The notes: generated by a model not told the origin, from the sequence alone. A DNA stretch of 64,000 nt from Bacteroidales bacterium (GCA_016935355.1 JAFGRC010000018.1:284-64283); one strand, 5' to 3'; counted from the first letter of the stretch, positions 46,662 to 62,749 are shown. Program-made: numbers and translations.

Positions 46662-46690
46662 GTCAATTTATTTATTTATCAGTTAAGGTT

Positions 46691-46764
46691 ATATGAATTT
46701 GTCAGGCTAAATTTATAAGCTTATTCATTAATGTCATATGAATTTGCTCAGCTAAAGTTATGAG
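46691..46764. repeat. Two imperfect ~29-bp direct repeats, 45 bp apart
   Basis: Copy 1 is atatgaatttgtcaggctaaatttataag (46691-46719). Copy 2 is atatgaatttgctcagctaaagttatgag (46736-46764). Both lie in the intergenic region upstream of the SMP-30 gene. Confidence 0.5.
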
Positions 46765-46802
46765 AATTTATTCTTATTTCAAAAGATGCTGCATCATAAT
46801 AA

Positions 46803-46834
46803 GACAAGCCGGCTCTAAAGGACACCGGCTTGTC
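46803..46834 (-). terminator. Hairpin terminator at the 3' end of the ABC/RND operon
   Basis: A 10-bp stem (gacaagccgg at 46803-46812 pairing with ccggcttgtc at 46825-46834). On the minus strand it is followed by a T-rich tract (cttattat). Confidence 0.5.
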
Positions 46835-46864
46835 AGCAAATAAAAAATCAAAACAGACAAACGA

Positions 46865-47587
46865 TCAAATGAATTTTTCGCGTTTCTGCAGGTTAAAAAG
46901 TCCGTAAACCAGACTTACCACAATACCGATCGACAGAAAGATCCGGTTATCACTTACCGTTCCGGCCCATATAAGCTCGTTGGTATTCGAAGGCATAGCA
47001 AAGGGATTCAAAAAGATATTCCACTTTGATTCGGCAAGCTGATCAGTCAATATGAAGATGAACAGGCCGATCAGGACCATAACCACGGCTGTTCCGTTTC
47101 CGTTCTTGATGATTGTGGAAAACATAAAAGAAAGACTTCCGATAAAGAGAATCGGATACATAATCTGATAGGTCATTTCCAGCTTGTTAATGGGTATGAG
47201 CAAAACCGATAACAGCCAGGAATAAATCAGAAGCAGCACGAATACCACGACAAAAACCATGATCAACCGGGCAAACCATACCTTGTAGCGGTAATCGGGA
47301 ATCCCGAACAGGATCTCAATGACACCTGCATCATCATCACTCTGGATCCCGAATACCGTTGGATAAAATATCAGCAATATTCCCGGTAACAAGAGAATGT
47401 TGTATATATTATCTTCCGTAATGATTTCACTTTCCAGCACGTTTTGAACGGAAAAAAAGATCATCAGCACAAGGGAAGCCAGTAAAAACCAGATGAATTT
47501 ATTGGCAAAAATGATGCCGACATTGTAACGTGCCAGTTTCGCAGCCAAAATTGCGTTATTTTTTAATTTTGATTTTGTACTCATCAT
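46865..47587 (-). CDS. ABC-2-type transporter permease (about six hydrophobic segments)
   Basis: 240 aa polytopic membrane protein. Its N-terminal region (LARYNVGIIFANKFIWFLLASLVLMIF) parallels the N-terminus of the 1152-aa permease (IARYERKTLFRSWFFRIFSSLSMLVLF). It starts 28 nt after the fused NBD gene. Confidence 0.7.
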   Translation of the reverse strand: MMSTKSKLKNNAILAAKLARYNVGIIFANKFIWFLLASLVLMIFFSVQNVLESEIITEDNIYNILLLPGILLIFYPTVFGIQSDDDAGVIEILFGIPDYRYKVWFARLIMVFVVVFVLLLIYSWLLSVLLIPINKLEMTYQIMYPILFIGSLSFMFSTIIKNGNGTAVVMVLIGLFIFILTDQLAESKWNIFLNPFAMPSNTNELIWAGTVSDNRIFLSIGIVVSLVYGLFNLQKREKFI

Positions 47588-47615
47588 TCAAAGTAAAAAT
47601 TGTATTCGATCATCA

Positions 47616-50600
47616 TCAGGCAATATCCTTAAGCAGGCATAAATAGGCATCTTCCAGCAACGGATGCGCCTGCTGGGCATCCGGATGGGGTTTTTCCACG
47701 GAAATGCAGCGAACCTTGATCTTACTTCCTTCACGCATATGATGCACTATAAGCTGTTTGTTGGCAAAATCATCGAATTCCTTTACCGTCATACTAAAGG
47801 TCCATACAAATTTTTCACCAAGCTTCGCCATCCCTTTTGGTGTGCCTGTATACTTCAACACACCTTTGTTCAGCACTGCAACATTATTACAGGAACTTGA
47901 AATGTCCTCAATAATGTGCGTCGAGAATATTACGATCCTTTCGCGGCTCAGCTCTACCAGAAGGTTTCTGAACCGGATCCGTTCCCTTGGATCCAGTCCC
48001 GCTGTTGGTTCATCCACAACCAGAATGCGCGGGAGGTTCAGCAATATCTGTGCAATACCGATACGCTGCTTCATACCCCCGGAATAGGAACCGATTTTAT
48101 CGTCTTTCTTGTCATGCATATGAACCGACTTCAGCACGTAATCGATGCGGGCTTCCCGGGTTGACTTGTCCGTTATCCCCTTCAGTATGGACTGATAATC
48201 GAGATAATCCCATGCTGTCATGTTTTCATATGTCCCGAATGCCTGAGGCAGATAACCCATTAATCCCTGCAATTCTTCACGGTATTTCTGGGTATCAAGT
48301 CCGTTGATAAAAATCTTACCATAGCTCTGTTCGTAAATACCGCAAATGATCCGCATCAGGGTAGTCTTACCCGCCCCGTTGGGACCCAACAATCCGAACA
48401 TACCCGTCCCGATCATCATTGAGGCACCGTTAAGCGCCCTGAAAGGGACCTTCTGTTTACCGATGACGGGTATTTGCTTGATCATCCGTAAAAATCTGCG
48501 ACGCAGGATGCCAAAACGTCCTGTGATCCTTTCAATATTCACATTCTTTTCATACAGATATCTGGATGTTGTATAGATGATCAGACAGCATAGCCAGATC
48601 ACACCGACAAATATTACAACTCCCAGAGTATCCCAGCGTTTTGAAAAGATGTACAGGAATACAAGCGGGGTGCCCCACATGAGTATGTTTGTAATGATTT
48701 TGCTGATCCTGAGATAAACCTGATTGTCCTGCTCCCCGGCACGATTTGCCAGAACCGTCTTAAAGGGTTTCCATATTGCAAACTGGAGGAAATAAATGGC
48801 ATGGCATAAAACAAACATCCAGAAATTGCTATCGATAAAGATGAAAATAAAATATGCAATAAATCCGGTCAACGGAATCTGCCACATGAGATCATAAAAA
48901 TCACGCAGTTTGTCATATTTTTTCTCCAGGCCTGCACGCTTCCTGACCTGGATACCACCTTTCCACTCCCTTGTGAACCTGGAATCGCGATCATATACCT
49001 TTACAATTTTCCTGATGTTAATATTAATGGGATCGGTGTCTCCGATCAGTTTTGTACTGGCACGCCGCAGACTGGTCATGAGGAAATAAGTGACACCCGG
49101 TATCAGGATCAGCAAAAGGATAAAGTCGGCCAGCTGCCAGATAAAGGTATCCACTTTAAAATAAATGAACAGAATGCCGATAACAAAAATTACCGCGTGG
49201 ATCGTTTTAATTTTCCAGTTCAGTGATTTCATCCACTTCAGTGCATTCTCCAGACCAAAATACATGGTGGGAATGAAAATAAGGGTCAGCAGTGTACTGA
49301 CCGCCAGTCCACCAATGACGGTTATTGCAAAAGGTGCACCGATGATGGAAACATATCCCCCCTGTCCCATGGCAAGCGGAAACATTGCAACGATGGTGGT
49401 TATTGCAGTAATTAAAATGGGACGGACACGGGAAATCCCTGCAGTGATTAATGCCCTGGAATGACCGTAACCACGTTTGCGCAGAATGTTCGTATAATCG
49501 ATCAGGATGATGCCGTTGTTTACCACAACACCCAGCAGAATTAAAAATCCCGTAATGGTATTGGCATTGAGTATGCTGTTATTGGTAAAGATCAGGGCCA
49601 GAAATGAACCAATGGCCGCCATGGGTATTGAAAACAATATCACGAACGGAGTCATGAGCGATTCGAAAACAGAAGCCAGTATCATAAAGATAAAAACCAG
49701 TGCAGCGATGATCAGAACATAGTATTCGCTGAACAAATCCTCTTCGTGAATAACTTCAATGGCTACACCGGCAGGAAGGTTATAAGCTGCCACGATCTGG
49801 TCGATCTCGAGACGGTAAGCTTCGAGTATATCATTCGATTCCTCGGCCTCTTCTTCAAAGCGGTAAGTCACTTCAATCTGTTTTTCCTGGTTTTCCCGGG
49901 TTATATTTGACATTCCTTCCGCATAATAAATGTCGGCCAGATCCTGAAGCATATAGTAGCCCGTATTGTCGTTACCGATTTGCAGGGTCTGCAATTCAAA
50001 AAGGGTCTTTTCATCCTCTTCATCTTCATCTTCATCCGCATCCTTTTCCTTGATCGTGATGTCATATTCCTCATCACCCTGCTTAAATGTCACACCTGCT
50101 GTAAATTCGCTTGAAAAAGAATTCAGTTCACTGGAAATATCATTTAAGGCCAGCCCGTATTCCGTAAGCAATAGCTGATTGAATTCCATGTGCACTTCCG
50201 GCCGGTTTGTTGATACCGTGGTGCTGACACTCCTGATTGATTCCAGGTCCTCCAGATAATACTCCAGATCTTCGGCAACTCCCTGCATCACATCAAAATC
50301 CTCACCCTTGATAACGATCCGCTCCTGGTTCGTTCCGATTCCCACGAAACTGCTGAAATTGCTGCTCATGCCGCTTCCCCCTATGGCAGTCATTGCACTT
50401 CCGCCCCCTGAAGATGATTCCGTAAGGCTTATTCCCCCGCTTCCGATCCTTCTTCCAAGTTCTTCTTCAACAGCAGACTTGATTTCAGCCATATTGCGTC
50501 TGGCAATATCCTGGTAATCTTCCTTTAACGCCACGGTTACCGTAGCTTCTTCTTCCTCGACCCTGGTAACGATTTCTTTCTTTTCCTCGAGATCTTCCAG

Positions 50601-52340
50601 TCTGGATTCCACTTCGCGTACGATGGCATCGGTTGATTCCAGCGTTGCTCCCGTCGGCATGCTAATATAAACATCAAATTGTTCTTCTTCCACTTCAGAC
50701 AAATTGCTCACACTAAGGGCAAGAACAACCAGTATGGTGATAAAAAATACAACAAGTGCACCGATAATTGTACCTGCAGGATTTCTGAGACTTTGTTTCA
50801 GCAGAAGTACATAAATCTGAATGACCCGGTTATTGGTGGTGACTTTTTCATAGAAAATATTATGCGCTTTCCTTCTTCTCAGAAGAAGATGGCTTCCCAT
50901 TGGAATCAGCAAAAGTGCTACGAACAAAGACATGCTTATCGTGGAAATCACGGAAACACCGACATTATTTCCTATGAGCCTTACATTATCATCGGAGGCA
51001 AAAATAAAAGGGAGAAATACAGTAATGGTTGTAAGGGTTGCTGCAAGAATGGACCTCCATACTTCCTTAGCGCCCTGCGTAACAGCTTTTTCCGGATCAA
51101 ACCCGTTTCCGGATAACCTGTAGATATTTTCCATTACCACAATACTGTTGTCCAGCAACATTCCAATTGCCATCGCCATACCGATCAATGTAAAACTGTT
51201 AATGCTTATTCCGAGGGCATAAAAGAAATTGAAAGCAGAAAATATGGAAACCGGAATGGCCAGCGCAACAAAAATGACAAGCCGCAGGTTCTTCAGGAAT
51301 ACCCACAGGATAAAAACCGCAAGCAATCCTCCGAAAAGGGCCAGTTGAATAATCTGATTGATATTGGTCTCCATGGTCTCCGCCGAATTCGACTGAACCA
51401 CTATTTCAACGTCTCTGGATTTAAGCTTCTGGTTGAGGACTTCAATCTGCTCCAAAGTACGGTGCGAAAGGTCAATCAAATTGGACTGCGTGTCGCTGAT
51501 CAATGTGGCGGACACAGCATCCAGTCCGTTTACACGACTGTAGGAAGTGACTTCCTTTACGCCAAAGTATACATCGGCGACATCTTTAAGCAGTATAGGA
51601 CCTTCCTTCAGGACAATGTTTTCGATATCACCAACGCTTCCGTATTCGGCAGTCACGTGGACGAAATATCTTTTATCAGGTTCATGGACATGGCCCGTAA
51701 AAGTCCGGCTTTGGGCATATTGTCCGATTGCAGAACTGATTTGGGCAGGCGTGATGTTATATGCTTCACAGGCACCCATATCGAGAATTACCTCGACTGA
51801 TTTTTCCTGTCCACCGTAGACATTCACAGCTGCAATTCCGTCAATGTTCTCCAGCTGGTTCACAATTTCTTCATCGACAATGTTGCGGATGCGGTCGGTT
51901 CCGCCGGAGCCTCTGATCTGCAATTCCATGAAATCACTGGTCGTTTGCAGGGTATTAGCCTGTACAACCTGGACTGTGAAATTTTCATCAAGGTTCTGCC
52001 TGATCTGATTGATCCTTTCCTCAAGTTTAAGATATGCCAGCTGGGTATTGATATCACTTTTGAAACTTACGGTTACAGTGGCCTGACGGTTGGTGATCTG
52101 GGATGAAATGTTTTCCACACCATCGAGGGTTCCTATTGCACCTTCAACTGGAATAACCGCTTGATTTTCAAGATAATTAGGCTCGACTTCCATTCTGGAG
52201 CTGATCTGGACGAAAAGCGTCTGCAGTTCCAAAGAGGGCATTAACTCGACTGACAGTTGTCTATAGGATATGTATCCGAGAACGGACAGGCCAATAAACA
52301 ACATGCTTATAAAAATCTTTCTATGTAAAATGAATTTCAT
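47616..52340 (-). CDS. Fusion protein: complete RND (AcrB-like) permease + ~260-aa multi-TM linker + ABC transporter ATP-binding domain
   Basis: Single uninterrupted 1574-aa ORF.
- aa 1-~1035 form a full 12-TM RND layout (TM4 GMLLDNSIVVMEN, TM10 GVVVNNGIILIDY, RVRPILIT).
- aa ~1040-1297 contain about six further hydrophobic segments.
- aa ~1298-1574 form a complete NBD: Walker A GPNGAGKT (nt 48363-48386), signature SGGMKQR, Walker B ILVVDEP, and H-loop STH. Confidence 0.85.
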   Translation of the reverse strand: MKFILHRKIFISMLFIGLSVLGYISYRQLSVELMPSLELQTLFVQISSRMEVEPNYLENQAVIPVEGAIGTLDGVENISSQITNRQATVTVSFKSDINTQLAYLKLEERINQIRQNLDENFTVQVVQANTLQTTSDFMELQIRGSGGTDRIRNIVDEEIVNQLENIDGIAAVNVYGGQEKSVEVILDMGACEAYNITPAQISSAIGQYAQSRTFTGHVHEPDKRYFVHVTAEYGSVGDIENIVLKEGPILLKDVADVYFGVKEVTSYSRVNGLDAVSATLISDTQSNLIDLSHRTLEQIEVLNQKLKSRDVEIVVQSNSAETMETNINQIIQLALFGGLLAVFILWVFLKNLRLVIFVALAIPVSIFSAFNFFYALGISINSFTLIGMAMAIGMLLDNSIVVMENIYRLSGNGFDPEKAVTQGAKEVWRSILAATLTTITVFLPFIFASDDNVRLIGNNVGVSVISTISMSLFVALLLIPMGSHLLLRRRKAHNIFYEKVTTNNRVIQIYVLLLKQSLRNPAGTIIGALVVFFITILVVLALSVSNLSEVEEEQFDVYISMPTGATLESTDAIVREVESRLEDLEEKKEIVTRVEEEEATVTVALKEDYQDIARRNMAEIKSAVEEELGRRIGSGGISLTESSSGGGSAMTAIGGSGMSSNFSSFVGIGTNQERIVIKGEDFDVMQGVAEDLEYYLEDLESIRSVSTTVSTNRPEVHMEFNQLLLTEYGLALNDISSELNSFSSEFTAGVTFKQGDEEYDITIKEKDADEDEDEEDEKTLFELQTLQIGNDNTGYYMLQDLADIYYAEGMSNITRENQEKQIEVTYRFEEEAEESNDILEAYRLEIDQIVAAYNLPAGVAIEVIHEEDLFSEYYVLIIAALVFIFMILASVFESLMTPFVILFSIPMAAIGSFLALIFTNNSILNANTITGFLILLGVVVNNGIILIDYTNILRKRGYGHSRALITAGISRVRPILITAITTIVAMFPLAMGQGGYVSIIGAPFAITVIGGLAVSTLLTLIFIPTMYFGLENALKWMKSLNWKIKTIHAVIFVIGILFIYFKVDTFIWQLADFILLLILIPGVTYFLMTSLRRASTKLIGDTDPININIRKIVKVYDRDSRFTREWKGGIQVRKRAGLEKKYDKLRDFYDLMWQIPLTGFIAYFIFIFIDSNFWMFVLCHAIYFLQFAIWKPFKTVLANRAGEQDNQVYLRISKIITNILMWGTPLVFLYIFSKRWDTLGVVIFVGVIWLCCLIIYTTSRYLYEKNVNIERITGRFGILRRRFLRMIKQIPVIGKQKVPFRALNGASMMIGTGMFGLLGPNGAGKTTLMRIICGIYEQSYGKIFINGLDTQKYREELQGLMGYLPQAFGTYENMTAWDYLDYQSILKGITDKSTREARIDYVLKSVHMHDKKDDKIGSYSGGMKQRIGIAQILLNLPRILVVDEPTAGLDPRERIRFRNLLVELSRERIVIFSTHIIEDISSSCNNVAVLNKGVLKYTGTPKGMAKLGEKFVWTFSMTVKEFDDFANKQLIVHHMREGSKIKVRCISVEKPHPDAQQAHPLLEDAYLCLLKDIA

Positions 52341-52375
52341 GAGATCACTACTGTTAAAATGATTACAATCCCTGT

Positions 52376-55300
52376 TTATGCCTCCGCGGATGACGTCTTT
52401 CCTCTCAGTCTGTCCAGTACGTCATATACACACGGTATGACAACCAGCGTCAGCAGGGTTGATGTCACCAACCCGCCTATCACGGCAAGAGCCATAGGTG
52501 AGCGTAATGCAACACTCTCCCCGAAACCGAAAGTCAACGGCAGCAATGCCAGAATTGTGGTCAGGCTGGTCATGATGATCGGTCTGATCCTTTGCTGACC
52601 TGCCATAATAATGGCATCCTTCCGGTTCATCCCTTCCCTTAGCAATTGATTGATCCTGTCCACCAGTATAATGGAATTGTTAACAGCAATACCGACCAGC
52701 AGGATGATTCCGATCAATGCCATAATGTTGAAAGTCTTGCCCAACAATAAGAAAACGAGAATGCTTCCAACCACGGCAAGCGGAATTGTTAAGATAATTG
52801 TGAAAGGATGGATCAGTGATTCAAACTGCGCTGCAAGTACCATATACACCAGGACCAGTGCCAATATTAATGCAAACCTCAGATTCAGCATCGATTCTTC
52901 CCGCATTTCCTCCTCTCCGGTGACCAGAATCCTGTAATCTGCAGGCAGGTAAATACCGTCCAGATTTTCCCGCACTTTATCAGCAATCTTATTGAGCGAT
53001 GTGTTGTTTGCAATTTCTGCCGTAACCCTGCCAATCCTGGTTTGGTTGGTATGCCGCACTTCTTTCGGTGATACAGAATAACTGATCGTTGCTATTTCGT
53101 CCAGCCTGTATGTCTGGTCACCCGAAGTAATCGTAAGTTCATTTATCTCATTGAGCGTCCGTTCCGGAAGTTCAATCGTGATATCGTTCATTTCCCCTTC
53201 ATATTCAACTTCACCTGCATTCTGTCCCTCAAGCTGGTTCTGAATCTGGGTAATGATGTTGCTCGGATTGAGCCCGAAAATGCCTGCACGGTACTGATCA
53301 ATGACCACTTCAACTTCCGGTGCCCCTGCCTCAATGGATGACTGAAGATCATAAAGATCTTCCATGTTGGCCATACGGGCCTTAACCTCTTCAGTGATCA
53401 GTTCAATCTGATCCAGTTCCTCACCCCGTACTTCAACAACCACAGGTGATCCGCCAGTGCCCAGGATCGTATTCAAAGCCGTCTGTTCCTGGGAAAATGT
53501 TATTTCCAGACCGGGTACACTGTCTGTTAACTGTGTAATAACCGATATGAGGTCGTTCGTTGTCCGTTTTGAGTCTTTGTTCAGCGCAATACGGATCTCA
53601 CTGGTGTTTTCTCCTTCAAATACGGATTCCAGATTCGTAGAAATGCTGGTTTCAGGTCCTACATGACTGTAAATCAAATCAATTTCGTCACCGAAATAAC
53701 TGTTCACGATTGAAACGATGTTTTGAGTTGTCGATTCAGTCCGGAACAACTTGGTTCCCTCCTGCAGTTTCAAATTTACGGTAAGTTCCCTGGATTCCGT
53801 CCTGGGCATAAATTCTGTACCAATGACCGGTACAAGTGCCAGTGATCCGGCTACAAGTATGGTGGCAGTTATGATCACCAGAGCTTTTCTATCAAGGACT
53901 TTCTTTAGGAAGTTACCGTAACCGGTAAATTTGATCGATCTCTTCACAGTAGGAACAGGTCGCTTCAAATAAAACCGGTGGTATAACATGGGTATTACAA
54001 ATATTGCCACAAAAAGTGAAGAAATCAGTGAAAATGCGACAGTCCATGCTTCATCCTTAAACAATTCCCCGGATGCCCCTTCAAGATATATGATGGGAAG
54101 AAAGACCACAATGGTTGTGATGGTGGATGCTGTTATCGCCCCGGCTACCTGTGAGGTACCGACTACTGCAGATTCTTTCAGTGACATGCCGCTTTCGTGA
54201 TTCCTGAATATGTTTTCCAGTACCACTATTGCATTATCCACCAGCATACCTGCCCCAAGGGCCAGTCCTCCCAATGTCATGATATTAATGGTAAGGTCAT
54301 TAAAATACATCAGATTGAAGGTTGCTATGATGGATATCGGAATGGCGGCACTGACAATCAATGTGGATTCAATCCGCTTGAGAAACAGGAACAATACGAA
54401 AACTGCAAGCAATATGCCAATCAGGGCTGTATTCATAACCTCCCTGATGGCGGCACTGATAAACCTGCCCTGATCACTTACAAATATCAGCTCATAACCC
54501 GGCAGGGCCCTTCCCAGGTTTACAAGCGCGTCATTAACCTCATCAACTGCCTTGATGGTATTGTATTTTGTTTCTTTATAGATTGACAGACCTATGCATC
54601 GCTGACCATTTATCGTTACGATATTGGCCGGTTCCTTGTTTGCAAATGATATTGTAGCAACATCTTTAAGATAAATTGGCGCCCGGCCGATCACTCTTAA
54701 TCCGGCAGTTTCAGATACCACCGGTTCATATCCGACGATCAGGTTTTCAAAATCCGAGATACTGGTTAACATTGAAACACCTTTTACCACATACTGCATA
54801 CCCATTTCAGTGATGCTGCCGCCTGAAATATTCCGGTTAAAGTTTTGCAACTGCTGACTCAACACGTCGACAGTAAGTCTGAACGACTGCAGCCTGTAAG
54901 GATCTGTTTTAACAAGGACTTCCCGCTTCTCCTGGCCGGATAATTCAACTTCAGCAATACCGTCAAGCCGCACAAGCTCATTCCTGATATAATTTTCAGC
55001 AACTTTTCTCAGCTCATTCATATCGGTGATCTCCGGATGTGTGAGTCCGATGATCATCACAGGATCTGCATTGGGATCATACTGCATGATCTGCATTTCA
55101 TCAATATCCTGATTTTGTGTAAATGAGTTCAGGGCTTTCTGCAGGTCCAGGAACGCTTCGTCCATGTCCTTTTTCCATTTGTACTCAATAATGATCTGTG
55201 CGGTCCCGATCCTGGATACTGACGTAACCTGAACGACATCTTTCTGTCTGATGGCTGTTGCCTCGATGTCATCAACAAACCGTTCTTCCATTTCTTCAGG

Positions 55301-55468
55301 GGGCCGTTCGCCCGACTGGATCTCCACATATATCCGTGGTGAATTCAGATCCGGAAACAAATCAATGCCCAGTTTACCAAATGAGATAAATCCAAGCAGG
55401 ACAATTGCAAGAACAATCATGAGAATCGTAACCGGATAATTGATGGAAAATTGCGTTAATTTATTCAT
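52376..55468 (-). CDS. RND efflux permease (AcrB-like), paralog 1 of the composite operon
   Basis: 1030 aa with a 12-TM RND layout. TM4 is GMLVDNAIVVLEN, TM10 is GIAVNNSIILVDR, and the RIRPIIMT motif is present. Confidence 0.95.
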   Translation of the reverse strand: MNKLTQFSINYPVTILMIVLAIVLLGFISFGKLGIDLFPDLNSPRIYVEIQSGERPPEEMEERFVDDIEATAIRQKDVVQVTSVSRIGTAQIIIEYKWKKDMDEAFLDLQKALNSFTQNQDIDEMQIMQYDPNADPVMIIGLTHPEITDMNELRKVAENYIRNELVRLDGIAEVELSGQEKREVLVKTDPYRLQSFRLTVDVLSQQLQNFNRNISGGSITEMGMQYVVKGVSMLTSISDFENLIVGYEPVVSETAGLRVIGRAPIYLKDVATISFANKEPANIVTINGQRCIGLSIYKETKYNTIKAVDEVNDALVNLGRALPGYELIFVSDQGRFISAAIREVMNTALIGILLAVFVLFLFLKRIESTLIVSAAIPISIIATFNLMYFNDLTINIMTLGGLALGAGMLVDNAIVVLENIFRNHESGMSLKESAVVGTSQVAGAITASTITTIVVFLPIIYLEGASGELFKDEAWTVAFSLISSLFVAIFVIPMLYHRFYLKRPVPTVKRSIKFTGYGNFLKKVLDRKALVIITATILVAGSLALVPVIGTEFMPRTESRELTVNLKLQEGTKLFRTESTTQNIVSIVNSYFGDEIDLIYSHVGPETSISTNLESVFEGENTSEIRIALNKDSKRTTNDLISVITQLTDSVPGLEITFSQEQTALNTILGTGGSPVVVEVRGEELDQIELITEEVKARMANMEDLYDLQSSIEAGAPEVEVVIDQYRAGIFGLNPSNIITQIQNQLEGQNAGEVEYEGEMNDITIELPERTLNEINELTITSGDQTYRLDEIATISYSVSPKEVRHTNQTRIGRVTAEIANNTSLNKIADKVRENLDGIYLPADYRILVTGEEEMREESMLNLRFALILALVLVYMVLAAQFESLIHPFTIILTIPLAVVGSILVFLLLGKTFNIMALIGIILLVGIAVNNSIILVDRINQLLREGMNRKDAIIMAGQQRIRPIIMTSLTTILALLPLTFGFGESVALRSPMALAVIGGLVTSTLLTLVVIPCVYDVLDRLRGKTSSAEA

Positions 55469-55506
55469 TACTAAGGATTCCTGTTAAATTGTAAAAGACA
55501 TAATAT

Positions 55507-56562
55507 TTATCGGACAACATTTACCCTTGATCCGTTGCGCAGGGTCTCATAGCCACTGGTCACCAGCTGATCGTTTACGGTCAGTCCGGATACCACTTCC
55601 ACCTGTTCGGCATTTTCAATACCGGTTTCAATTCTCCTTTCCCTGGCTGCATTTCTGTCAACCACAAAAACTGTCCTGCCCCTTGTACCGGAAATAATCA
55701 CATCTTTGGGTATGACAATCACACTGTCTTTTTGAGTAACAACGATATCGGCCTTTACGAACATGCCGGGACGCAATTTTAATTCCGGGTTATCAATCAG
55801 CAGTTTTCCCTGGAATGTCCTTGTTTCGCTGCTTACAACAGGAGATAGCTCATTCACGGTACCAACAATGGTATCATCCGGAATGTTGTAATTGGTAATC
55901 CATACTTCCTGTCCGATCTTTACTTCAGAAAGGTTCTTTTCCGGAAGGTTGATCCCCATATACATATCGCTGTAATTCATAATGGTGGCCATCAGGCTTC
56001 CTGAAGAGACTGCAATGTTCTGTGTATAAAAGGGAAGTTCCACGATCACCCCGTCAAAAGGTGCCGTTATGTTCATCTTTTCCAGCTGTATGAGCGCAGT
56101 TTCATAGCTGTACTTCGCGCTGGTCATTGAAACTTCAGCATCACGCAATTCACGAAGCGTTACACCGCCCTTTTCATAAAGTGATTCCTGTTTCTGATAC
56201 TCCTGCTCGGATAGCTCAAGCTGAAGTTTTTTTGATTCAATGGCAATACCATTTTCGTATTCTTCATTTTCCAGACGGATGATAACCTGTCCCTTTCGTA
56301 CCTGGTCGCCAAGTTTGAAAGGCCTGCCTGTCGCCGGATTCGTTCTGAGATTGTACCTGCCTAACGTTTCCGAATTCATAATCGCTTCATTGATCGCGTA
56401 CACGGTACCGGAAGTATTGATGAATTTTCGGATGGTCAGTGGTTTGATATCCGTTACGGAGACCGGGCTCGACAATTCAGTTTCCACATTCTGAGTCTGG
56501 CTGCTGCAGCCAATCAAAGTCCCTATGGTCAATAAAAACAATAAAGTTCTAATCGGTTTCAT
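55507..56562 (-). CDS. Efflux periplasmic adaptor subunit (MFP/HlyD family), lipoprotein
   Basis: Lipobox (TLIGCSS), MFP-like hairpin and barrel segments, and a position between the TolC and RND genes. Confidence 0.9.
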   Translation of the reverse strand: MKPIRTLLFLLTIGTLIGCSSQTQNVETELSSPVSVTDIKPLTIRKFINTSGTVYAINEAIMNSETLGRYNLRTNPATGRPFKLGDQVRKGQVIIRLENEEYENGIAIESKKLQLELSEQEYQKQESLYEKGGVTLRELRDAEVSMTSAKYSYETALIQLEKMNITAPFDGVIVELPFYTQNIAVSSGSLMATIMNYSDMYMGINLPEKNLSEVKIGQEVWITNYNIPDDTIVGTVNELSPVVSSETRTFQGKLLIDNPELKLRPGMFVKADIVVTQKDSVIVIPKDVIISGTRGRTVFVVDRNAARERRIETGIENAEQVEVVSGLTVNDQLVTSGYETLRNGSRVNVVR

Positions 56563-56581
56563 GTTAAATTATTTTCAGTGA

Positions 56582-58081: not shown

Positions 58082-58104
58082 TTTTATTGATTTGTTAATT
58101 TATT

Positions 58105-61100
58105 TTATAGCTTAACCAGTTTGATCGCATCGGCATATACAATTCTTTGTTCTGATTTATTGGACAGCTGGATCACTGCACCATCACCCGATGAAAACTG
58201 ATATGAGCCCAGTAAAACCCAGCCATTATTAGATGCACCTACATTAAGAATTTGTTCTTCCTCTCCTTCATCGTGAAAGATGTTAAAATAATAGTAATAA
58301 TCACGTTGACGTCCCAAATCACCGCGTCCACCAAAATCACCGCCAACCGGAGGGCCGCCTCCCGTAAAACCTCCCCTCATCACCATGGGTGAATTGTATA
58401 CATAATAATATACATCATAGTAACCCGGTTCATCAATGGGAACGGTCCATGTGGCCTTTTGATTGCCGTCTCCCGATTTGATATAGTATGCCGATCTGAC
58501 GATATGCCCGTAAAAATCCGAGCTTGTTGTTGCAGTCCAGCTTGCAGGCGGGCGAAACTGATTCACTCCGGAATATTTTTCTGCCGATTCATCCTCCTTA
58601 ATGAGCCATTTCCGGAGCAGACTGGTATTGGTCAATGTGCTGATCTGAAAACCAGGATCTTCATTATCAACAATTATTTCACCCGGCAGTACCAGGTTCA
58701 CAGGAGTTTCAGATATTCTTTCCCCTTCATATGCTGTTATCTTTGTGTTTTCAACAATATTTGAAAAAGGATTTGACAAAGTCTGGGGTATGTTTTCCGA
58801 TGTCAGGGTATTGATATCGGCCATTCTGGGTTCGCTGGGTAACAGAAAACTGAATTCCTTTGTCTGGTTGGCTTCCAGGTATAATATCTCATCTACCTGT
58901 TCATCAACATTTGAACTCCCGCCAAAACCTCCGGATCCTCTTCCTCCTCCCGACATTCCGCCACCAAAGCTCCCGGGCATACCACCACTGGTGCTCAGTC
59001 TGAATGACAATAAAATGACACCGTCAACATCTGACAGGTTCGACACCTTCAGGCTGACCATCGTTTTTAACTGATCTCCTGTCTTGACTTTCACCGCATT
59101 CAATGAGGAAATCAGATATTTGGGCAATTCCCTTTGATTGAACCAGTTTTCAACGAACTGGCCGAGCTCAATGCCAAAATGTTCCTGTGTTTTATTTTCG
59201 AATTCTTCGAATGACAAATTTTTAAATCTGTTTTCAACCAATACGGCTTTTAGAAAATCTCCAAGCACTTCTTCACTGGTCTGAGATTGAAGCATTACGA
59301 AAAATACCTGACTTTTGAGTGAAATCAGATCCGGAATGATATCCTTGCTGTTCAGATCCGTCAGGATTTCAACAAATGACTTATCCTGTAAAGCAATGTT
59401 TGCATCTTCCTCACCGCTTGATCCCGTAATATTCCTCATAAAGGAAGACCGCATATCGGTTCCCACACTGCTTCTTAAATAGTATTCGAAAATACGATTC
59501 ATAACAGGCCATTTGTCGGACCTGATATCATTCTGAAAGTTATATAATTGAGGGAAAAGATAATAGGGACTGGTTTCTGCTGTGCTTGTAATTTGTCCTG
59601 CCCCTGCAATCCTGATCATCATATCAGGGCGCTGCTGTGCATCCGTGAAATTTGCCATGAAATTATTCACGACCCTGAGCTGATAATCCCTGTCTGTCAG
59701 GCTTTCATCTCGGTTTCTGCCCTGCCGCTGTTGTCTTTTGATCATGAACCTGAAATCAGCGTCTGACAGCTGGTATGCTTTTTCAGGCATGTATACCTGC
59801 TCTGGTTGCACGTATTCCGAATAAGACCTCCAGATTCTGTCAAATGATTTGAACTGTGCCGGAACCTCCACAACGGAAATGCGGTTAAAGGCATAAGTAA
59901 GATCAAACTCGCGTTCAAGGTCATTCAGCTTGCCGGCAATTAAATTGGGAACCGTATCATTGATATCGGTCAGGACGTCTGAAAAATAATCGTGGCCTTT
60001 AAAATGCCATAAAGAAAACCTGATGTTGTCGGCTTCAAATGATTTTTCCTCATAATTTCCAATGGTGAGACTGATTTGTGTCAGGGATTGTTCAGGCCTG
60101 AACAGGAAGTTGCCTGAACCCTCCTGAGTGCTTACTCCCTGTGATATCGCGACAAGCGATTCACCGGTTGTTACATGAAGCGTATAATCCGTATAATTTC
60201 TCTTATCCCATCCCACATGTTCGGTCGAATAGCTCACTCCCGGTACCGGATACCAGTTTGCCTCCGGTGTCAGCAATACATAATTGGGTGTGACAAAAGC
60301 ATACCGCTTGTCGGCATTCATCAGAAGGTCGCCAAACATTTCTTCACGCTCCTCCCTGTCGATATCCAGATAACAGGCTGCTTCATTAACCTTGCCTGAA
60401 TAATCCAAACTGAGGCGTATTTCTTCACCCGGTTCAATTGCGGGATCAAGTCCGATGATCAGCAGATGATGTTTTCTTTCAAACTGCCTTTCCTGACCCT
60501 CAATGGTTATGCTGTTTGCCTGCAATCCCGGATTGAGGTGCAAAATGATTTCACCGAGGTCATTTGCGGAATTATTTTGCAGCAACATTTCTGATTCGAC
60601 CTCGAGCTGTTCACCGGTATGACTTAATTGAAGATCGTGTTGAATGACTTCCGGAGTGTATTCCCTGAAATACTGGTTGTTCAGTTCAACCATTTCCTTT
60701 CTCAGCCTTTCATCACCTTTAAAATTACTGATGTATTTGTATCCCAGGAAAAAACCTGCAATAATAAAAAGAATGCTGCCAATCAGGCTTATCAGGGTCA
60801 TGGATTCCGATTGTGGCAGACGTTTTAATATATACATGGTCATGAACACACATCCGACTCCCAGACTGAAGTATATTCCCCGGTGAAGCAGGATTTCCGG
60901 AAGATTTCCGAATCCGGTTACCTGAGACTGCAATAAGGGAATCTTAAATGCCATATAATCAAATAAATAATAGAATTTTTCCTGAAGCAGAAACAGGGTT
61001 ATCCCGATGTAACCCAGGATCAGAACAAAGGTAACGGCCTGATTCTGAATAACGCTCATGATCAAAAAGGACAATCCGATGATAAAAACCAGTGTTGGTA

Positions 61101-61563
61101 TGCTGATCAGCAACAGGTAAAGGGCATAAGATACCCAGTTCACTGCCGCCCCGGGAGCAAGAAGGTTAAAAACAAGTGCCATACCCAGAATCAGTATGTT
61201 CAGAAGCAGGAACACCTCAATATTTCCCCAGGTTTTACCGACCACATATTCCGCGTTGGTCATCGGACGCATATAAATGACTTCTGTAGTATCCAGTTTT
61301 TTATCCCTTTTCAGAAAGTCAGAGGCAAGAAATACCGCAATGATAGCCTGTGCAACGTTCAGGATCAGCAGGTTGAAATATGGAATTGTCGAGGGTATTG
61401 CACTGAAAACCCAGCGTGACATGCCTGCTTCTGACAGAAGAGCAAAGTTTACAATAAACAGCACCAGCATGGAAAGACTGCTGAAAATACGAAAGAACCA
61501 GCTCCGGAATAAGGTCTTCCTTTCGTATCTGGCAATTGATAATATATTATGCAAAGAGATCAT
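58105..61563 (-). CDS. ABC-2-type permease fused to an M1-aminopeptidase-like ectodomain (no HExxH) and a golvesin-like C-terminal domain
   Basis: 1152 aa.
- aa 1-~280 are polytopic and ABC-2-like.
- aa ~300-820 resemble the permease/M1-aminopeptidase fusion architecture (LHLNPGL...IRLSLDYSGKV, ...RISVVEVP...), but the protein contains no His-Glu dipeptide, so no HExxH motif.
- aa ~965-1152 match the golvesin-type pattern (GNQKATWTVPIDEPGYYDVYYY...NNGWVLLGSYQFSSGDGAVIQLSN...ADAIKLV). Confidence 0.7.
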   Translation of the reverse strand: MISLHNILSIARYERKTLFRSWFFRIFSSLSMLVLFIVNFALLSEAGMSRWVFSAIPSTIPYFNLLILNVAQAIIAVFLASDFLKRDKKLDTTEVIYMRPMTNAEYVVGKTWGNIEVFLLLNILILGMALVFNLLAPGAAVNWVSYALYLLLISIPTLVFIIGLSFLIMSVIQNQAVTFVLILGYIGITLFLLQEKFYYLFDYMAFKIPLLQSQVTGFGNLPEILLHRGIYFSLGVGCVFMTMYILKRLPQSESMTLISLIGSILFIIAGFFLGYKYISNFKGDERLRKEMVELNNQYFREYTPEVIQHDLQLSHTGEQLEVESEMLLQNNSANDLGEIILHLNPGLQANSITIEGQERQFERKHHLLIIGLDPAIEPGEEIRLSLDYSGKVNEAACYLDIDREEREEMFGDLLMNADKRYAFVTPNYVLLTPEANWYPVPGVSYSTEHVGWDKRNYTDYTLHVTTGESLVAISQGVSTQEGSGNFLFRPEQSLTQISLTIGNYEEKSFEADNIRFSLWHFKGHDYFSDVLTDINDTVPNLIAGKLNDLEREFDLTYAFNRISVVEVPAQFKSFDRIWRSYSEYVQPEQVYMPEKAYQLSDADFRFMIKRQQRQGRNRDESLTDRDYQLRVVNNFMANFTDAQQRPDMMIRIAGAGQITSTAETSPYYLFPQLYNFQNDIRSDKWPVMNRIFEYYLRSSVGTDMRSSFMRNITGSSGEEDANIALQDKSFVEILTDLNSKDIIPDLISLKSQVFFVMLQSQTSEEVLGDFLKAVLVENRFKNLSFEEFENKTQEHFGIELGQFVENWFNQRELPKYLISSLNAVKVKTGDQLKTMVSLKVSNLSDVDGVILLSFRLSTSGGMPGSFGGGMSGGGRGSGGFGGSSNVDEQVDEILYLEANQTKEFSFLLPSEPRMADINTLTSENIPQTLSNPFSNIVENTKITAYEGERISETPVNLVLPGEIIVDNEDPGFQISTLTNTSLLRKWLIKEDESAEKYSGVNQFRPPASWTATTSSDFYGHIVRSAYYIKSGDGNQKATWTVPIDEPGYYDVYYYVYNSPMVMRGGFTGGGPPVGGDFGGRGDLGRQRDYYYYFNIFHDEGEEEQILNVGASNNGWVLLGSYQFSSGDGAVIQLSNKSEQRIVYADAIKLVKL

Positions 61564-61575
61564 ATCAATAGAATT

Positions 61576-62481
61576 TTATTTAAAATCATCACTGTCCGTC
61601 CATTCACCAAGTTTTGCCTCCATAAAATACACATATGCATGTTCCAGGTTGGGATCAATATTGATCCCTGAATATCCGTTAATACTGTCGGCAACGACCT
61701 GTATCTCCCAGCCGTCCACTTCAGGGATGGTTGAAATAACGGGATATTTTTCGCTGATTTCCCGATATTCGTTTTCGGTTGCATTAATAAGCCATACCCG
61801 ACCCCTGGCTTCCTTTACCAGATCATCAGGGGACCCGTTAAAGGCCACGGATCCTTTGTCAAGCAAGGCCATATTTTCGCATGTACTGGAGATATCGCCC
61901 ACAATATGTGTGGAAAGAATGATAATGACATTTTTGGTGCTGATCGTGGATAGCAGGTTGCGGAACCTGATCCGCTCTTCCGGATCCAGTCCGGTAGTAG
62001 GCTCATCCACAATGATCAACCTCGGATCATTGATCAGGGCCTGAGCTATTCCCAGCCGTCTTTTCATACCACCCGACAGTTTGTTGGCCTGACGGTCGCG
62101 TGCTTCAAAAAGCCCGACTTCCTCCAGCATTTTCTCAACCGCAGACCTTCTTTTGGAGGCATCTTTCATTCCGGACAGACGGGCAGCATAATCCAGGAAT
62201 TCATAAGTTTTCAGCTTGGAAAAAAAGCGAAAATCCTGAGGTAAATAACCCAGCATCTTTCTGATCTCTTTCCTGTTTTTCCTGAGATCATATCCATCTA
62301 TGGTGACCCTGCCACTTGTAGGTCTCATCAGTGTCACCAGAATGCGCATCAGGGTCGATTTGCCGGCACCGTTCGGTCCCAGTAATCCGAACATGCCGTT
62401 CGGAATGGTCAGGTTGATATCCTTTAACGCCTTGTTGCCATTCCGGTATGTTTTATCCAGATTTTCAATGATAATTTCCAC
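61576..62481 (-). CDS. ABC transporter ATP-binding protein (stand-alone), GTG start
   Basis: Walker A GPNGAGKST, signature LSGGMKRR, Walker B LIIVDEPT, and H-loop STH. It starts at a GTG (forward cac, 62479-62481). It is a close paralog of the NBD fused to the RND gene. Confidence 0.93.
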   Translation of the reverse strand: MEIIIENLDKTYRNGNKALKDINLTIPNGMFGLLGPNGAGKSTLMRILVTLMRPTSGRVTIDGYDLRKNRKEIRKMLGYLPQDFRFFSKLKTYEFLDYAARLSGMKDASKRRSAVEKMLEEVGLFEARDRQANKLSGGMKRRLGIAQALINDPRLIIVDEPTTGLDPEERIRFRNLLSTISTKNVIIILSTHIVGDISSTCENMALLDKGSVAFNGSPDDLVKEARGRVWLINATENEYREISEKYPVISTIPEVDGWEIQVVADSINGYSGINIDPNLEHAYVYFMEAKLGEWTDSDDFK

Positions 62482-62710
62482 GGTTTGATGGTATTTGAAT
62501 TACATTAATGATTAAACAGATTTTTTGATATCCGGTTTTTCCAATCAACCACAACTTAAACTTGTCTTAATCCGGTACACTGGATTCGTCATTTAAATAA
62601 AATAACCGGAATAAAATTATGAACTATAGACATACAATTGCAAAATAACTATACCAATACCGGAAATTCATAGATAGATGGAATATTTCTGCCTATTCAT
62701 CGCTTATTCT

Positions 62711-62749
62711 AAAAAGATAAGGTGCCTCAACGTGAGACACCTTTATCTT
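62711..62749 (-). terminator. Imperfect hairpin terminator after the Gfo/Idh/MocA gene
   Basis: The stem is aagataaggtg / cacctttatctt with one bulge. On the minus strand it is followed by a T-run, seen as forward aaaaa at 62711-62715. It separates the oxidoreductase gene from the ABC/RND operon. Confidence 0.5.

What the first reader, a model, noticed from the sequence alone, without database searches (positions are those of the whole stretch)
46865..62481. Seven-gene operon interleaving two ABC modules with a TolC/MFP/two-RND efflux machine
All seven genes are on the minus strand, with gaps of only 12, 23, 19, 38, 35 and 28 bp. The transcription order is: ABC ATPase, ABC-2 permease/ectodomain fusion, TolC, MFP, RND-1, RND-2::ABC-ATPase fusion, ABC-2 permease. 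Hairpins flank the block at 62711-62749 and 46803-46834. Known tripartite pumps are energised either by an RND (proton-motive force) or by an ABC (ATP, MacAB-type) inner-membrane component. Here one TolC and one adaptor are encoded together with two RND paralogs and two complete ABC sets, which implies a single assembly or pathway using both. I do not recognise this as a described system.
Basis: partly seen in the sequence, partly recalled or inferred. Interest (0 to 1): 0.85.

Follow-up and report, generated by a model that had tools for sequence, protein, structure and literature searches.

The report
Efflux pump fusing RND and ABC
A seven-gene operon encodes a pump spanning both membranes in which a transporter of the proton-driven type (RND) is permanently fused to an ATP-burning motor (ABC); the design is conserved from human gut Bacteroides to several other phyla, and I found no paper that describes it.

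Summary

Of 80 species-level genomes found through the adaptor protein, 52 carry the complete block in the same order. Another 23 are collinear up to a contig end, 4 lack only a detectable C-terminal lectin-like domain, and 1 deviates.

The RND::ABC fusion is in frame in 65 of 67 cases. Its roughly 255-residue membrane linker occurs nowhere else among 1.84 billion representative proteins. The family reaches Acidobacteriota, Zixibacteria, Latescibacterota and Hydrogenedentota.

New details:
- The fused ATPase is split: its first strand sits about 175 residues and four membrane helices before the rest.
- Both RND paralogs lack the second Asp and the Lys of the canonical proton relay. A conventional RND in the same window keeps both.
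- The 1152-aa permease carries a periplasmic M1-aminopeptidase fold without zinc motifs, plus a carbohydrate-binding-like domain.
- Six-gene (no TolC) and four-gene variants exist.

The B. thetaiotaomicron ortholog (inferred BT0295-BT0302) has been treated as an ordinary bile-induced RND cluster.

Most likely this is one integrated ABC-plus-RND export machine. Its substrate and physical assembly are untested.

The parts
62719..62743 (-). Terminator hairpin of the upstream Gfo/Idh/MocA oxidoreductase gene (62769-63959). It marks the upstream edge of the block and is followed by a 237-nt untranslated leader.
61576..62481 (-). ABC1: a stand-alone ABC ATPase of 301 aa (GTG start). It is of the DrrA/NosF/ABCA-like type, has a C-terminal domain of about 70 aa, and all its catalytic motifs are canonical.
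60670..61563 (-). Perm1 membrane domain (aa 1-298): an N-terminal interfacial helix, a NosY-like ABC-2 core, and an extra seventh helix that puts the C-terminal part in the periplasm.
   Evidence: Topology is inferred from hydropathy, charge distribution and the AlphaFold2 helices.
58684..60666 (-). Perm1 periplasmic domain with an M1-aminopeptidase fold (about aa 300-960). It lacks HExxH and GxMEN and is therefore a predicted pseudopeptidase.
58108..58566 (-). Perm1 C-terminal Golvesin_C / xanthan-lyase-CBD-like beta domain, a predicted carbohydrate-binding module.
   Evidence: PMC9166713
56582..58081 (-). Outer-membrane factor (TolC family), 499 aa, with two OEP repeats and a signal peptide without a lipobox.
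55507..56562 (-). Periplasmic adaptor (MFP), 351 aa. It scores above the TIGR01730 cut-off and has the lipobox LIGC.
52376..55468 (-). RND1, 1030 aa, full-length ACR_tran. Its best solved relative is MdtB. TM4 reads VDN and TM10 reads VNN, so the proton relay is non-canonical.
49236..52340 (-). RND2 domain of the fusion protein (aa 1-1035), 29% identical to RND1. TM4 reads LDN and TM10 reads VNN.
49068..49196 (-). First extra membrane hairpin of the fusion (TM13-14, aa 1049-1091).
48990..49022 (-). Displaced first strand and A-loop of the fused ATPase (aa 1107-1117, NINIRKIVKVY). It is homologous to residues 2-12 of ABC1.
48549..48902 (-). Insertion of four membrane helices (aa about 1147-1264) between the first and second strands of the fused ATPase.
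47619..48473 (-). Remainder of the fused ATPase (aa 1290-1574): Walker A through H-loop plus the C-terminal domain. It is 40% identical to ABC1.
46865..47587 (-). Perm2: a 240-aa protein with six predicted membrane helices and an N-terminal amphipathic helix, the presumed ABC-2-type partner of the fused ATPase. It has no Pfam hit itself.
46803..46834 (-). Terminator-like hairpin (10-bp GC-rich stem) 31 nt after the Perm2 stop codon.

Best explanation
The block encodes one functionally integrated export machine that spans the cell envelope.

Its core is a tripartite RND-type pump: a TolC-family channel, a lipoprotein adaptor and two RND paralogs, laid out as in MdtABC or MuxABC-OpmB.

The second RND subunit continues, through six extra membrane helices, into an ABC ATPase of the ABC-2/NosF/ABCA type. 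That ATPase pairs with the small six-helix protein encoded next to it (Perm2). A paralogous free ATPase (ABC1) pairs with a giant NosY-like permease (Perm1). Perm1's periplasmic part is a catalytically dead M1-aminopeptidase fold plus a carbohydrate-binding-like module.

The mechanism I think most likely is a hard-wired two-step relay. The ATP-driven modules extract or flip an amphiphilic substrate from the cytoplasm or inner leaflet to the periplasmic face, or capture it there with the Perm1 ectodomain. They hand it to the RND porter domains, which expel it through the adaptor and TolC channel.

Shown here: gene content, domain identities, the conserved fusion, the split ATPase, intact ATPase motifs, the non-canonical RND relay, the dead peptidase fold, and deep conservation of the gene set.

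Inferred: mixed RND trimers, which ATPase pairs with which permease, physical hand-off, the direction of transport and the nature of the substrate.
For: 1. The seven genes are tightly packed on one strand between two strong hairpins.

2. Gene order is conserved. In 80 genomes of different species, 52 have the complete block, 23 are collinear until the contig ends, 4 lack only a detectable Golvesin segment and 1 deviates. No flanking gene family is present in more than 13 loci.

3. The fusion is in frame in 65 of 67 loci. The linker has 99 hits among 1.84 billion representatives, and every full-length hit is 1550-1587 aa with the linker at about residues 1025-1295.

4. Members are named from Zixibacteria, Acidobacteriota, Latescibacterota, Hydrogenedentota and Aminicenantes as well as Bacteroidota. 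Distant loci with 33-64% GC keep ABC1, Perm1, MFP, RND1, RND2::ABC and Perm2 even without a TolC gene.

5. Walker A, Walker B, signature, Q-loop and H-loop are conserved in both ATPases across orthologs.

6. A four-gene variant (MFP, RND1, RND2::ABC, Perm2) shows that the fused ATPase and Perm2 travel with the RND pair on their own.

7. Perm1 has an M1 fold (Foldseek probability 1.0, about 660 aligned columns) but no HExxH or GxMEN in 120 of 120 homologs. Its NosY-like membrane domain and the NosF-like fold of the ATPases fit a mechanotransducing ABC.

8. The inferred B. thetaiotaomicron ortholog cluster BT0297-0300 is induced about four-fold by bile (PMC11078008). This is consistent with an amphiphile-responsive exporter.
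Against: - No physical interaction, transcript map or transport assay exists for any member.
- Perm2 has no significant family match of its own.
- In B. thetaiotaomicron RNA-seq, the first ATPase gene (BT0295) has a base mean of 422 and log2FC -0.5. BT0296-0299 have base means of 28-71 and log2FC +1.1 to +2.8. This hints at separate regulation or processing of gene 1.
- Deleting BT0297-0300 gave no clear biofilm phenotype.
- One variant lacks ABC1 and Perm1 next to the pump, and one Prevotellaceae contig lacks ABC1, Perm1 and OMF upstream of the adaptor. The first ABC set may therefore be an accessory.
- Three RND protomers per trimer and two ATPase domains per ABC dimer do not match unless the trimer is mixed.
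- Both RNDs lack the canonical D408/K940 equivalents. The assumption that the RND half is proton-driven is therefore itself uncertain.
Confidence: 0.5

Rival explanations
1. ATP-powered or ATP-gated RND. The fused ATPase is not a transporter in its own right. Instead it drives or gates the conformational cycle of the RND subunits, which have lost the canonical proton relay. Perm2 and the six extra helices would be the mechanical coupling.
For: Both RND paralogs read D-N in TM4 and N-N or N-D in TM10, where MdtB and the conventional RND in the same window (2181-5306) read D-D and K. This holds family-wide, in loci from 33 to 64% GC. The fusion and the unusual split of the ATPase by membrane helices are strictly conserved. 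ATPase motifs are intact.
Against: The TM4 Asp and TM11 Arg are retained. An Asp-Arg pair suffices for proton coupling in SecDF (my own knowledge, not tested here). RND1 has the same relay but no ATPase. The presence of Perm2, an ABC-2-like six-helix protein, is more simply explained as the ATPase's own membrane partner. No precedent exists.
Confidence: 0.18
2. This is not drug efflux but envelope biogenesis or surface export. The ABC modules act as mechanotransducers (as in NosDFY, LolCDE or MacB) that extract or present a glycoconjugate, lipid or peptide. The Perm1 ectodomain binds it and the RND/TolC route passes it to the outer membrane or the exterior.
For: Perm1 has a NosY-like membrane domain, a large periplasmic substrate-binding-type fold (a dead M1 fold) and a CBM6/35/36-like Golvesin_C module (PMC9166713). 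The ATPase fold is closest to TM_1403, NosF and lipid-transporting ABCA proteins. The block is conserved as a single copy across free-living and host-associated lineages.
Against: No biosynthetic genes are conserved next to the block. Bile induction in B. thetaiotaomicron looks like a stress-efflux response. Bacteroides orthologs lack a detectable Golvesin segment.
Confidence: 0.15
3. Only one ABC machine is present. ABC1 and the fused ATPase form a heterodimer, and Perm1 and Perm2 form a heterodimeric membrane domain, so the 'two ABC sets' are the two halves of a single asymmetric ABC-2 transporter docked to RND2.
For: The two ATPases are paralogs, 40% identical over their whole length including the C-terminal domain. 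All four parts co-occur in nearly all loci. A single fused ATPase per RND2 would then need no second copy.
Against: The four-gene variant has the fused ATPase and Perm2 without ABC1 and Perm1. Both ATPases keep fully canonical motifs, with no degenerate site. Gene adjacency pairs ABC1 with Perm1 and the fused ATPase with Perm2. Perm1 and Perm2 are barely alignable.
Confidence: 0.09
4. The systems are independent neighbours: an ABC1-Perm1 transporter, a two-RND tripartite pump and an ABC-Perm2 transporter that are merely co-regulated. The fusion would be a neutral tether with no mechanistic coupling.
For: The core TolC/MFP/RND/RND layout works alone in MdtABC and MuxABC (PMC8277102). B. thetaiotaomicron RNA-seq shows unequal levels along the block.
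Against: The fusion is conserved in frame across several phyla, down to 24% linker identity. The linker evolves under constraint, with invariant residues in alignment A2, and is never found outside the fusion. The ABC genes stay with the pump while the TolC gene and all flanks come and go.
Confidence: 0.08

Closest known systems
MdtABC-TolC (E. coli) and MuxABC-OpmB (P. aeruginosa): tripartite RND pumps with two RND paralogs
   Same: One adaptor gene is followed by two adjacent RND paralog genes, with an outer-membrane factor in the operon as in MuxABC-OpmB. MdtB is the best solved-structure match for both RND1 and RND2. MdtBC is a documented heterotrimer (PMC8277102).
   Different: These are not orthologs: the MdtB and MdtC equivalog scores are 349 and 387 bits against cut-offs of 1584 and 1774. 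Those systems have no ABC parts. Here RND2 carries six extra helices and an ATPase, and both RNDs lack the second TM4 Asp and the TM10 Lys that MdtB has.
MacAB-TolC type ABC tripartite pumps
   Same: An ABC ATPase, an adaptor and a TolC-family channel are encoded together. The transporter is a mechanotransducer type with a large periplasmic domain.
   Different: MacB has an FtsX-type four-helix membrane domain with a MacB_PCD periplasmic domain and an N-terminal fused ATPase. Here the permeases are ABC-2-like, no FtsX or MacB_PCD hit exists, and two RND subunits are present.
NosDFY (NosF ATPase, NosY ABC-2 permease, periplasmic NosD)
   Same: The ATPase fold with a C-terminal domain matches NosF (28-29% identity; Foldseek E about 1e-15). 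The Perm1 membrane domain is NosY-like (COG name given by JGI and PF12679 hits on orthologs). A large periplasmic partner domain is served by a cytoplasmic ATPase.
   Different: The periplasmic part is fused to the permease and has an M1-peptidase fold, not a beta-helix. There is no link to N2O reductase genes. It is associated with an RND/TolC pump.
HlyD + ABC-2 operons such as YbhGFSR or B. uniformis BACUNI_01926-01932
   Same: They are multi-gene operons combining an outer-membrane factor, an adaptor, ABC ATPases and ABC-2 permeases. The B. uniformis operon also has seven genes and is drug-induced (PMC12694919).
   Different: Those operons contain no RND subunit and no fusion. BACUNI_01926-01932 is annotated as transporter, HlyD adaptor, ABC ATPase and ABC-2 permeases, so it is not an ortholog.
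M1 zinc aminopeptidases (IRAP, ERAP1/2, aminopeptidase N, LTA4H)
   Same: The fold of the Perm1 ectodomain matches (Foldseek probability 1.0, E about 1e-17, about 660 aligned columns). Faint to clear Peptidase_M1 Pfam hits occur on orthologs.
   Different: There is no HExxH-E zinc site and no GxMEN motif in any of 120 homologs. Identity is 11%. The domain is anchored to an ABC-2 membrane domain and followed by a CBM-like domain.
Cooperative two-step efflux, in which single-component inner-membrane pumps feed AcrAB-TolC (my own knowledge: Tal and Schuldiner 2009)
   Same: The logic is the same: an inner-membrane transporter moves substrate to the periplasm and an RND pump removes it across the outer membrane.
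   Different: In E. coli the partners are separate, unlinked proteins. Here the two stages would be encoded together and partly fused. This is a functional analogy only and was not tested.

Membership tests
Tripartite RND efflux system (HAE-1-like RND + MFP + OMF) | RND permease with 12 membrane helices and two large periplasmic loops (full-length ACR_tran) | tested here: met
   RND1 covers 5-1018 of 1021 profile positions (E 1.9e-216). RND2 covers 2-1028 (E 1.7e-164).
Tripartite RND efflux system (HAE-1-like RND + MFP + OMF) | Periplasmic adaptor of the RND_mfp family and a TolC-family outer-membrane factor encoded with it | tested here: met
   TIGR01730 scores 202.7 bits against a cut-off of 94.9. 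OEP appears twice, E 2.4e-44.
Tripartite RND efflux system (HAE-1-like RND + MFP + OMF) | Canonical proton relay (AcrB D407, D408, K940, R971 equivalents) | tested here: not met
   TM4 reads D-N and TM10 reads N-N (N-D in many RND1 orthologs). Only the first Asp and the TM11 Arg are kept. MdtB and the window's other RND read D-D and K.
Tripartite RND efflux system (HAE-1-like RND + MFP + OMF) | Membership of NCBI multidrug RND permease subfamilies | tested here: not met
   NF033617 scores 604.8 bits (RND1) and 430.3 bits (RND2) against a cut-off of 1250. These are divergent RNDs.
MdtABC / MuxABC-OpmB (heteromeric two-RND pumps) | Two RND paralog genes in tandem after a single adaptor gene | tested here: met
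   (29% identity between the paralogs)
MdtABC / MuxABC-OpmB (heteromeric two-RND pumps) | Orthology to MdtB and MdtC | tested here: not met
   Equivalog scores are far below the cut-offs. MdtB is only the nearest solved relative.
MdtABC / MuxABC-OpmB (heteromeric two-RND pumps) | Formation of mixed RND trimers | not testable with these tools
   Needs co-purification, cryo-EM or a multimer prediction.
MacAB-TolC type | FtsX-type permease with a MacB periplasmic core domain | tested here: not met
   No FtsX or MacB_PCD hit in any of the seven proteins.
ABC-2 / type V ABC exporter (DrrAB, NosFY, ABCA-like) | ATPase of the DrrA/NosF/ABCA kind with all catalytic motifs | tested here: met
   The best NCBIfam hits are drrA and GldA, both below their cut-offs. 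The fold matches TM_1403, NosF and ABCA. The motifs are conserved.
ABC-2 / type V ABC exporter (DrrAB, NosFY, ABCA-like) | Six-helix ABC-2 family membrane domain | tested here: inconclusive
   Perm1 hits ABC2_membrane_2 at E 3e-4, below the gathering score, although many orthologs carry PF12679. Perm2 has no hit itself, weak ABC2_membrane_2/3 hits on distant orthologs, and an hhalign E of 0.056 against Perm1.
ABC-2 / type V ABC exporter (DrrAB, NosFY, ABCA-like) | Contiguous ATPase domain | tested here: not met
   In the fused copy the first strand and A-loop lie 203-213 residues before Walker A, against 33 in ABC1, with four membrane helices between. This holds in 64 of 65 orthologs.
GldAFG gliding-motility ABC transporter | GldA equivalog score | tested here: not met
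   193 bits against a cut-off of 402.6. No GldG-like protein is present.
M1 zinc aminopeptidase | HExxH-(18)-E zinc site and GxMEN exopeptidase motif | tested here: not met
   Absent in the window protein and in 120 of 120 homologs. Only the fold is shared.

The most novel reading that the evidence does not exclude
This is a new class of transporter in which an RND pump is driven or gated by ATP hydrolysis, alone or together with the proton gradient. The link would be a membrane-embedded split ATPase that mechanically couples a dimerising ABC motor to a mixed RND trimer, for example two RND2::ABC protomers plus one RND1. The loss of the canonical Asp-Asp-Lys relay in both RND paralogs would be the signature of that change of energy source.
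Probability: 0.22. Interest if true: 0.92.

Novelty: new variant of a known kind. Interest (0 to 1): 0.78.

Why it matters
- Textbook tripartite pumps use either an RND (proton-driven) or an ABC (ATP-driven) inner-membrane engine. A conserved covalent RND-ABC hybrid that always travels with extra ABC-2 parts would be the first hard-wired combination of the two energy modes.
- It would make an old question directly testable: how cytoplasmic or inner-leaflet substrates reach periplasm-facing RND pumps.
- The system is present in prominent human-associated bacteria for which genetics exists or is feasible: Bacteroides thetaiotaomicron, B. faecis, Parabacteroides, Alistipes and Tannerella forsythia. 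It is also present in many environmental phyla.
- It has been counted as just another RND cluster in gut-microbe efflux studies, so its contribution to bile, drug or envelope physiology may have been overlooked.
- Two parts are structural novelties in their own right: the split ATPase, with four membrane helices inserted in its first hairpin, and the dead M1-peptidase ectodomain on an ABC permease.

Tried and rejected
- **Literature.** Six full-text searches for RND/ABC fusions, Bacteroidota ABC-2/TolC systems, 'xanthan lyase' annotations and ABC-2/M1 permeases found no description.
[quoted passage not shown] It is an HlyD/ABC-2 operon without an RND.
- **Fusion as an assembly or annotation artefact.** Rejected: it is in frame in 65 of 67 loci. 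The two exceptions (L023, L067) are long-read MAGs with many split alignments. The linker is found only inside 1550-1587-aa proteins.
- **Perm1 as an active peptidase.** Rejected: no zinc or exopeptidase motifs.
- **Perm2 homology to Perm1.** BLASTP and hhalign show only a weak TM5 motif. Pfam scans of 26 Perm2 orthologs and a PDB profile search gave nothing.
- **Sequence search of Perm1 against PDB.** Nothing significant.
- **RNA elements.** Rfam found none in 45500-64000.
- **Promoters and terminators.** The Bacteroidetes -7 motif TAnnTTTG has no match in the leader or in any intergenic gap and is not enriched in the window. The sigma-70 and terminator scan was uninformative.
- **Conserved neighbouring regulator.** None found; the best flanking family is in 13 loci.
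- **B. thetaiotaomicron locus tags.** The cluster look-up returned no tags. The BT0295-BT0302 mapping was instead inferred from flanking YjbH genes and published annotations.
- **Model coordinates.** These are not available, so pairing of the displaced strand with the ATPase sheet could not be measured directly. It rests on the DSSP strand assignment and the profile test.

Full report
**1.

The ORF list reproduces the seven minus-strand genes at exactly the stated coordinates. The gaps are 12, 23, 19, 38, 35 and 28 bp.

Pfam and NCBIfam assign the genes as follows:
- Gene 1: an ABC ATPase.
- Gene 2: a weak ABC2_membrane_2 hit plus Golvesin_C.
- Gene 3: two OEP repeats.
- Gene 4: an RND-type adaptor, above its cut-off.
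- Genes 5 and 6: full-length ACR_tran.
- Gene 6 also has ABC_tran at residues 1314-1447.

Gene 7 has no family hit, only six predicted membrane helices.

Both flanking hairpins fold far better than shuffles (z -3.9 and -4.2). The upstream one terminates the preceding oxidoreductase gene. Rfam finds nothing in the region. Neither sigma-70-type nor Bacteroidetes-type promoter motifs are informative.

**2. The gene set is a conserved unit**

A scan of one genome per species, using an alignment of the adaptor, returned 80 loci with 49-89% adaptor identity. They come from Prolixibacteraceae, Tangfeifania, Maribellus, Draconibacterium, Proteiniphilum, Dysgonomonadaceae, Tannerella forsythia, Parabacteroides, Bacteroides thetaiotaomicron, B. 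faecis, Alistipes, Rikenellaceae and Cyclobacteriaceae.

I ran tblastn with eleven segments of the window proteins:
- 52 loci have every segment in the same order and strand.
- 23 are collinear until the contig ends.
- 4 (the Bacteroides group and one other) lack only a detectable Golvesin segment.
- 1 (L069, a Prevotellaceae contig) lacks ABC1, Perm1 and OMF upstream of the adaptor.

Flanking genes differ between lineages; the most widespread neighbour family occurs in 13 loci.

**3. The fusion is real, old and exclusive**

RND2, linker and ATPase are in one frame in 65 of 67 loci. The two exceptions are frameshift-ridden long-read MAGs.

I searched the 271-residue linker against 1.84 billion representative proteins. 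It gave 99 hits. All full-length ones are 1550-1587 aa with the linker at about residues 1025-1295, and the rest are metagenomic fragments.

Searching with a distant member named further carriers: Zixibacteria, Acidobacteriota, Latescibacterota, Hydrogenedentota, Aminicenantes and a Spirochaetales MAG.

Loci of distant members show modular variants:
- L086 and L088 have all seven genes.
- L084 (64% GC) and L087 (next to a flagellin gene) keep six genes but no TolC gene.
- L085 (33% GC) has only the adaptor, RND1, RND2::ABC and Perm2.

The invariant core is therefore adaptor + RND1 + RND2::ABC + Perm2. ABC1 and Perm1 are nearly always attached, and the TolC gene is optional, as is common for RND operons.

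**4. Anatomy of the fusion**

After the twelfth RND helix come two membrane helices. Next is a cytoplasmic stretch containing NINIRKIVKVY, then four more membrane helices, then the ATPase from its second strand onward.

AlphaFold2 (mean pLDDT 83) models residues 1107-1116 as a beta strand. The only other strands in the model belong to the ATPase.

I built a position-specific profile from the first twelve residues of ABC1 orthologs (consensus SISIRNLNKIY). It finds its best linker match at this same site in 64 of 65 fusion orthologs ([HR]I.[IV]R.LVK[IV]YD), with a median z of 4.8 against shuffles. The site lies 203-213 residues before Walker A, against 33 in ABC1. The same holds in the distant loci.

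The fused ATPase is therefore split: its first strand and A-loop tyrosine are separated from the rest by a four-helix membrane insertion.

ABC1 and the fused ATPase are 40% identical, including a C-terminal domain of about 70 residues. Their fold is closest to TM_1403, NosF and ABCA ATPases. Walker A, Walker B, signature, Q-loop and H-loop are conserved in both.

**5. The RND pair**

RND1 and RND2 are 29% identical. Both have MdtB as their nearest solved relative but score far below all NCBI equivalog and subfamily cut-offs.

Aligned to MdtB, the TM4 motif reads VDN where MdtB reads VDD. The TM10 motif reads VNN where MdtB reads KKN.

Across orthologs and distant variants the pattern is constant: D-N in TM4, N-N or N-D in TM10, and Arg kept in TM11. 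The conventional three-gene RND operon at window 27-5306 reads VDD and VKN.

Whether this relay still couples protons cannot be decided here.

**6. Perm1 and Perm2**

Perm1 homologs number at least 1841, and many carry PF12679 and faint Peptidase_M1 hits.

The AlphaFold2 model (pLDDT 72.7, highest in the ectodomain) shows an interfacial helix, an ABC-2-like core and a seventh helix leading to a long stalk. Positive charges sit on the predicted cytoplasmic loops.

The ectodomain matches IRAP, ERAP1/2, aminopeptidase N and LTA4H with Foldseek probability 1.0 over about 660 columns at 11% identity. HExxH and GxMEN are absent from all 120 homologs.

The C-terminal Golvesin_C domain belongs to a CBM6/35/36-like family, of which Bacteroides members act as lectins (PMC9166713).

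Perm2 shares only a TM5 motif with Perm1. Its distant orthologs carry weak ABC2_membrane_2/3 hits.

**7. What is known about it**

In the B. thetaiotaomicron MAG locus L036 the genes run: YjbH, YjbH, CarboxypepD_reg, ABC1, Perm1, OMF, adaptor, RND1, RND2::ABC, Perm2, then an Omp85-like gene on the other strand.

Three published annotations fit this order:
- BT0293 is a YjbH protein and BT0299 an RND permease (PMC10434189).
- BT0297 is 'outer membrane lipoprotein SilC' (PMC4380924).
- BT0299 and BT0300 are the two RND genes of cluster BT0297-0300 (PMC11078008).

I therefore infer that the ortholog is BT0295-BT0302.

That cluster was one of 21 'RND-type' clusters studied. It was induced about four-fold by bile, and its deletion did not clearly change bile-dependent biofilm. 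The RNA-seq table shows BT0295 at a much higher level and not induced, unlike BT0296-0299.

Source databases name the fusion simply 'efflux RND transporter permease subunit' or 'AcrB / ABC ATPase'. No paper I could find mentions the ABC parts.

**8. Interpretation**

Three findings argue for one integrated machine rather than neighbours. The fusion is conserved. Perm2 is invariably associated with it. The ABC1-Perm1 pair persists while TolC and the flanks vary.

The simplest mechanism is a two-step relay. ABC modules deliver substrate to the periplasmic face and the RND/adaptor/TolC route expels it. The Perm1 ectodomain would serve as a binding or docking platform.

A 2:1 mixed trimer (two RND2::ABC plus one RND1) would supply exactly two ATPase domains. 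That stoichiometry is my inference, not a result.

The degenerate proton relay keeps open the bolder reading that ATP drives the RND cycle itself. The substrate is unknown. Bile induction in one gut species points to amphiphiles, and the CBM-like domain points to a glycan contact.

All of this needs the experiments listed under next steps.

Noticed in passing
window 27-5306 (+): A conventional three-gene RND operon: OMF (cut by the window start), a 347-aa adaptor and a 1041-aa RND. Its RND keeps the canonical VDD (TM4) and VKN (TM10) relay, which makes it a useful internal contrast to the RNDs of the seven-gene block.
   Followed up: partly
window 52376-55468 and 49236-52340 (-); also L004-L088: Both RND paralogs of the block lack the second TM4 Asp and the TM10 Lys of the AcrB/MdtB proton relay. 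They read D-N, and N-N or N-D. This holds family-wide, in loci from 33 to 64% GC.
   Followed up: partly
window 58903-58992 and 58306-58386 (-): Two glycine-rich, low-complexity loops in Perm1 (aa 858-887 and 1060-1086) have pLDDT below 50. They fall in alignment gaps of most homologs, so they look like lineage-specific insertions.
   Followed up: no
L036 (B. thetaiotaomicron MAG) 4205-19600; published RNA-seq of VPI-5482: In the supplementary table of PMC11078008, BT0295 (inferred ABC1) has a base mean of 422 and is not bile-induced. BT0296-0299 have base means of 28-71 and are induced. BT_RS01475 is missing from the table, and the value printed for 'BT0300' is that of BT_RS01480 (old tag BT0302). 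The annotation of the fusion gene in the reference strain may be split or marked as a pseudogene.
   Followed up: partly
L084 1329-15506; L087 1400-15423; L085 1038-10591: Modular variants of the block exist. L084 and L087 are six-gene forms without a TolC gene, in non-Bacteroidota-like contigs (64% GC in one, a flagellin gene nearby in the other). L085 is a four-gene form (adaptor, RND1, RND2::ABC, Perm2) in a 33% GC contig.
   Followed up: partly
L001 7422-8793 and 12 other Prolixibacteraceae-type loci: One or two small proteins of about 190 aa, with DUF3244 and a Por_Secre_tail (type IX secretion signal), lie just upstream of ABC1 in 13 loci. The window has nothing comparable there.
   Followed up: no
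L023 and L067: These two long-read MAG loci show many broken alignments in several genes of the block, including the fusion. They look like uncorrected frameshift errors rather than real pseudogenes.
   Followed up: no
L069 7793-12668: A Prevotellaceae contig has an unrelated ABC ATPase (33% identity) directly upstream of the orthologous adaptor and RND1. No Perm1 or OMF is detectable in 8.5 kb upstream. The contig ends before RND2.
   Followed up: no
window 40139-42303 (-): A NrfA (cytochrome c552) gene and a NapC/NirT-type NrfH gene, a nitrite-ammonifying pair. Nearby at 42503-43213 is a 1-Cys peroxiredoxin gene.
   Followed up: no
window 61277-62044 (+): A 255-aa ORF runs antisense across the ABC1/Perm1 junction. 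It is most likely a chance ORF on the opposite strand of conserved coding sequence.
   Followed up: no
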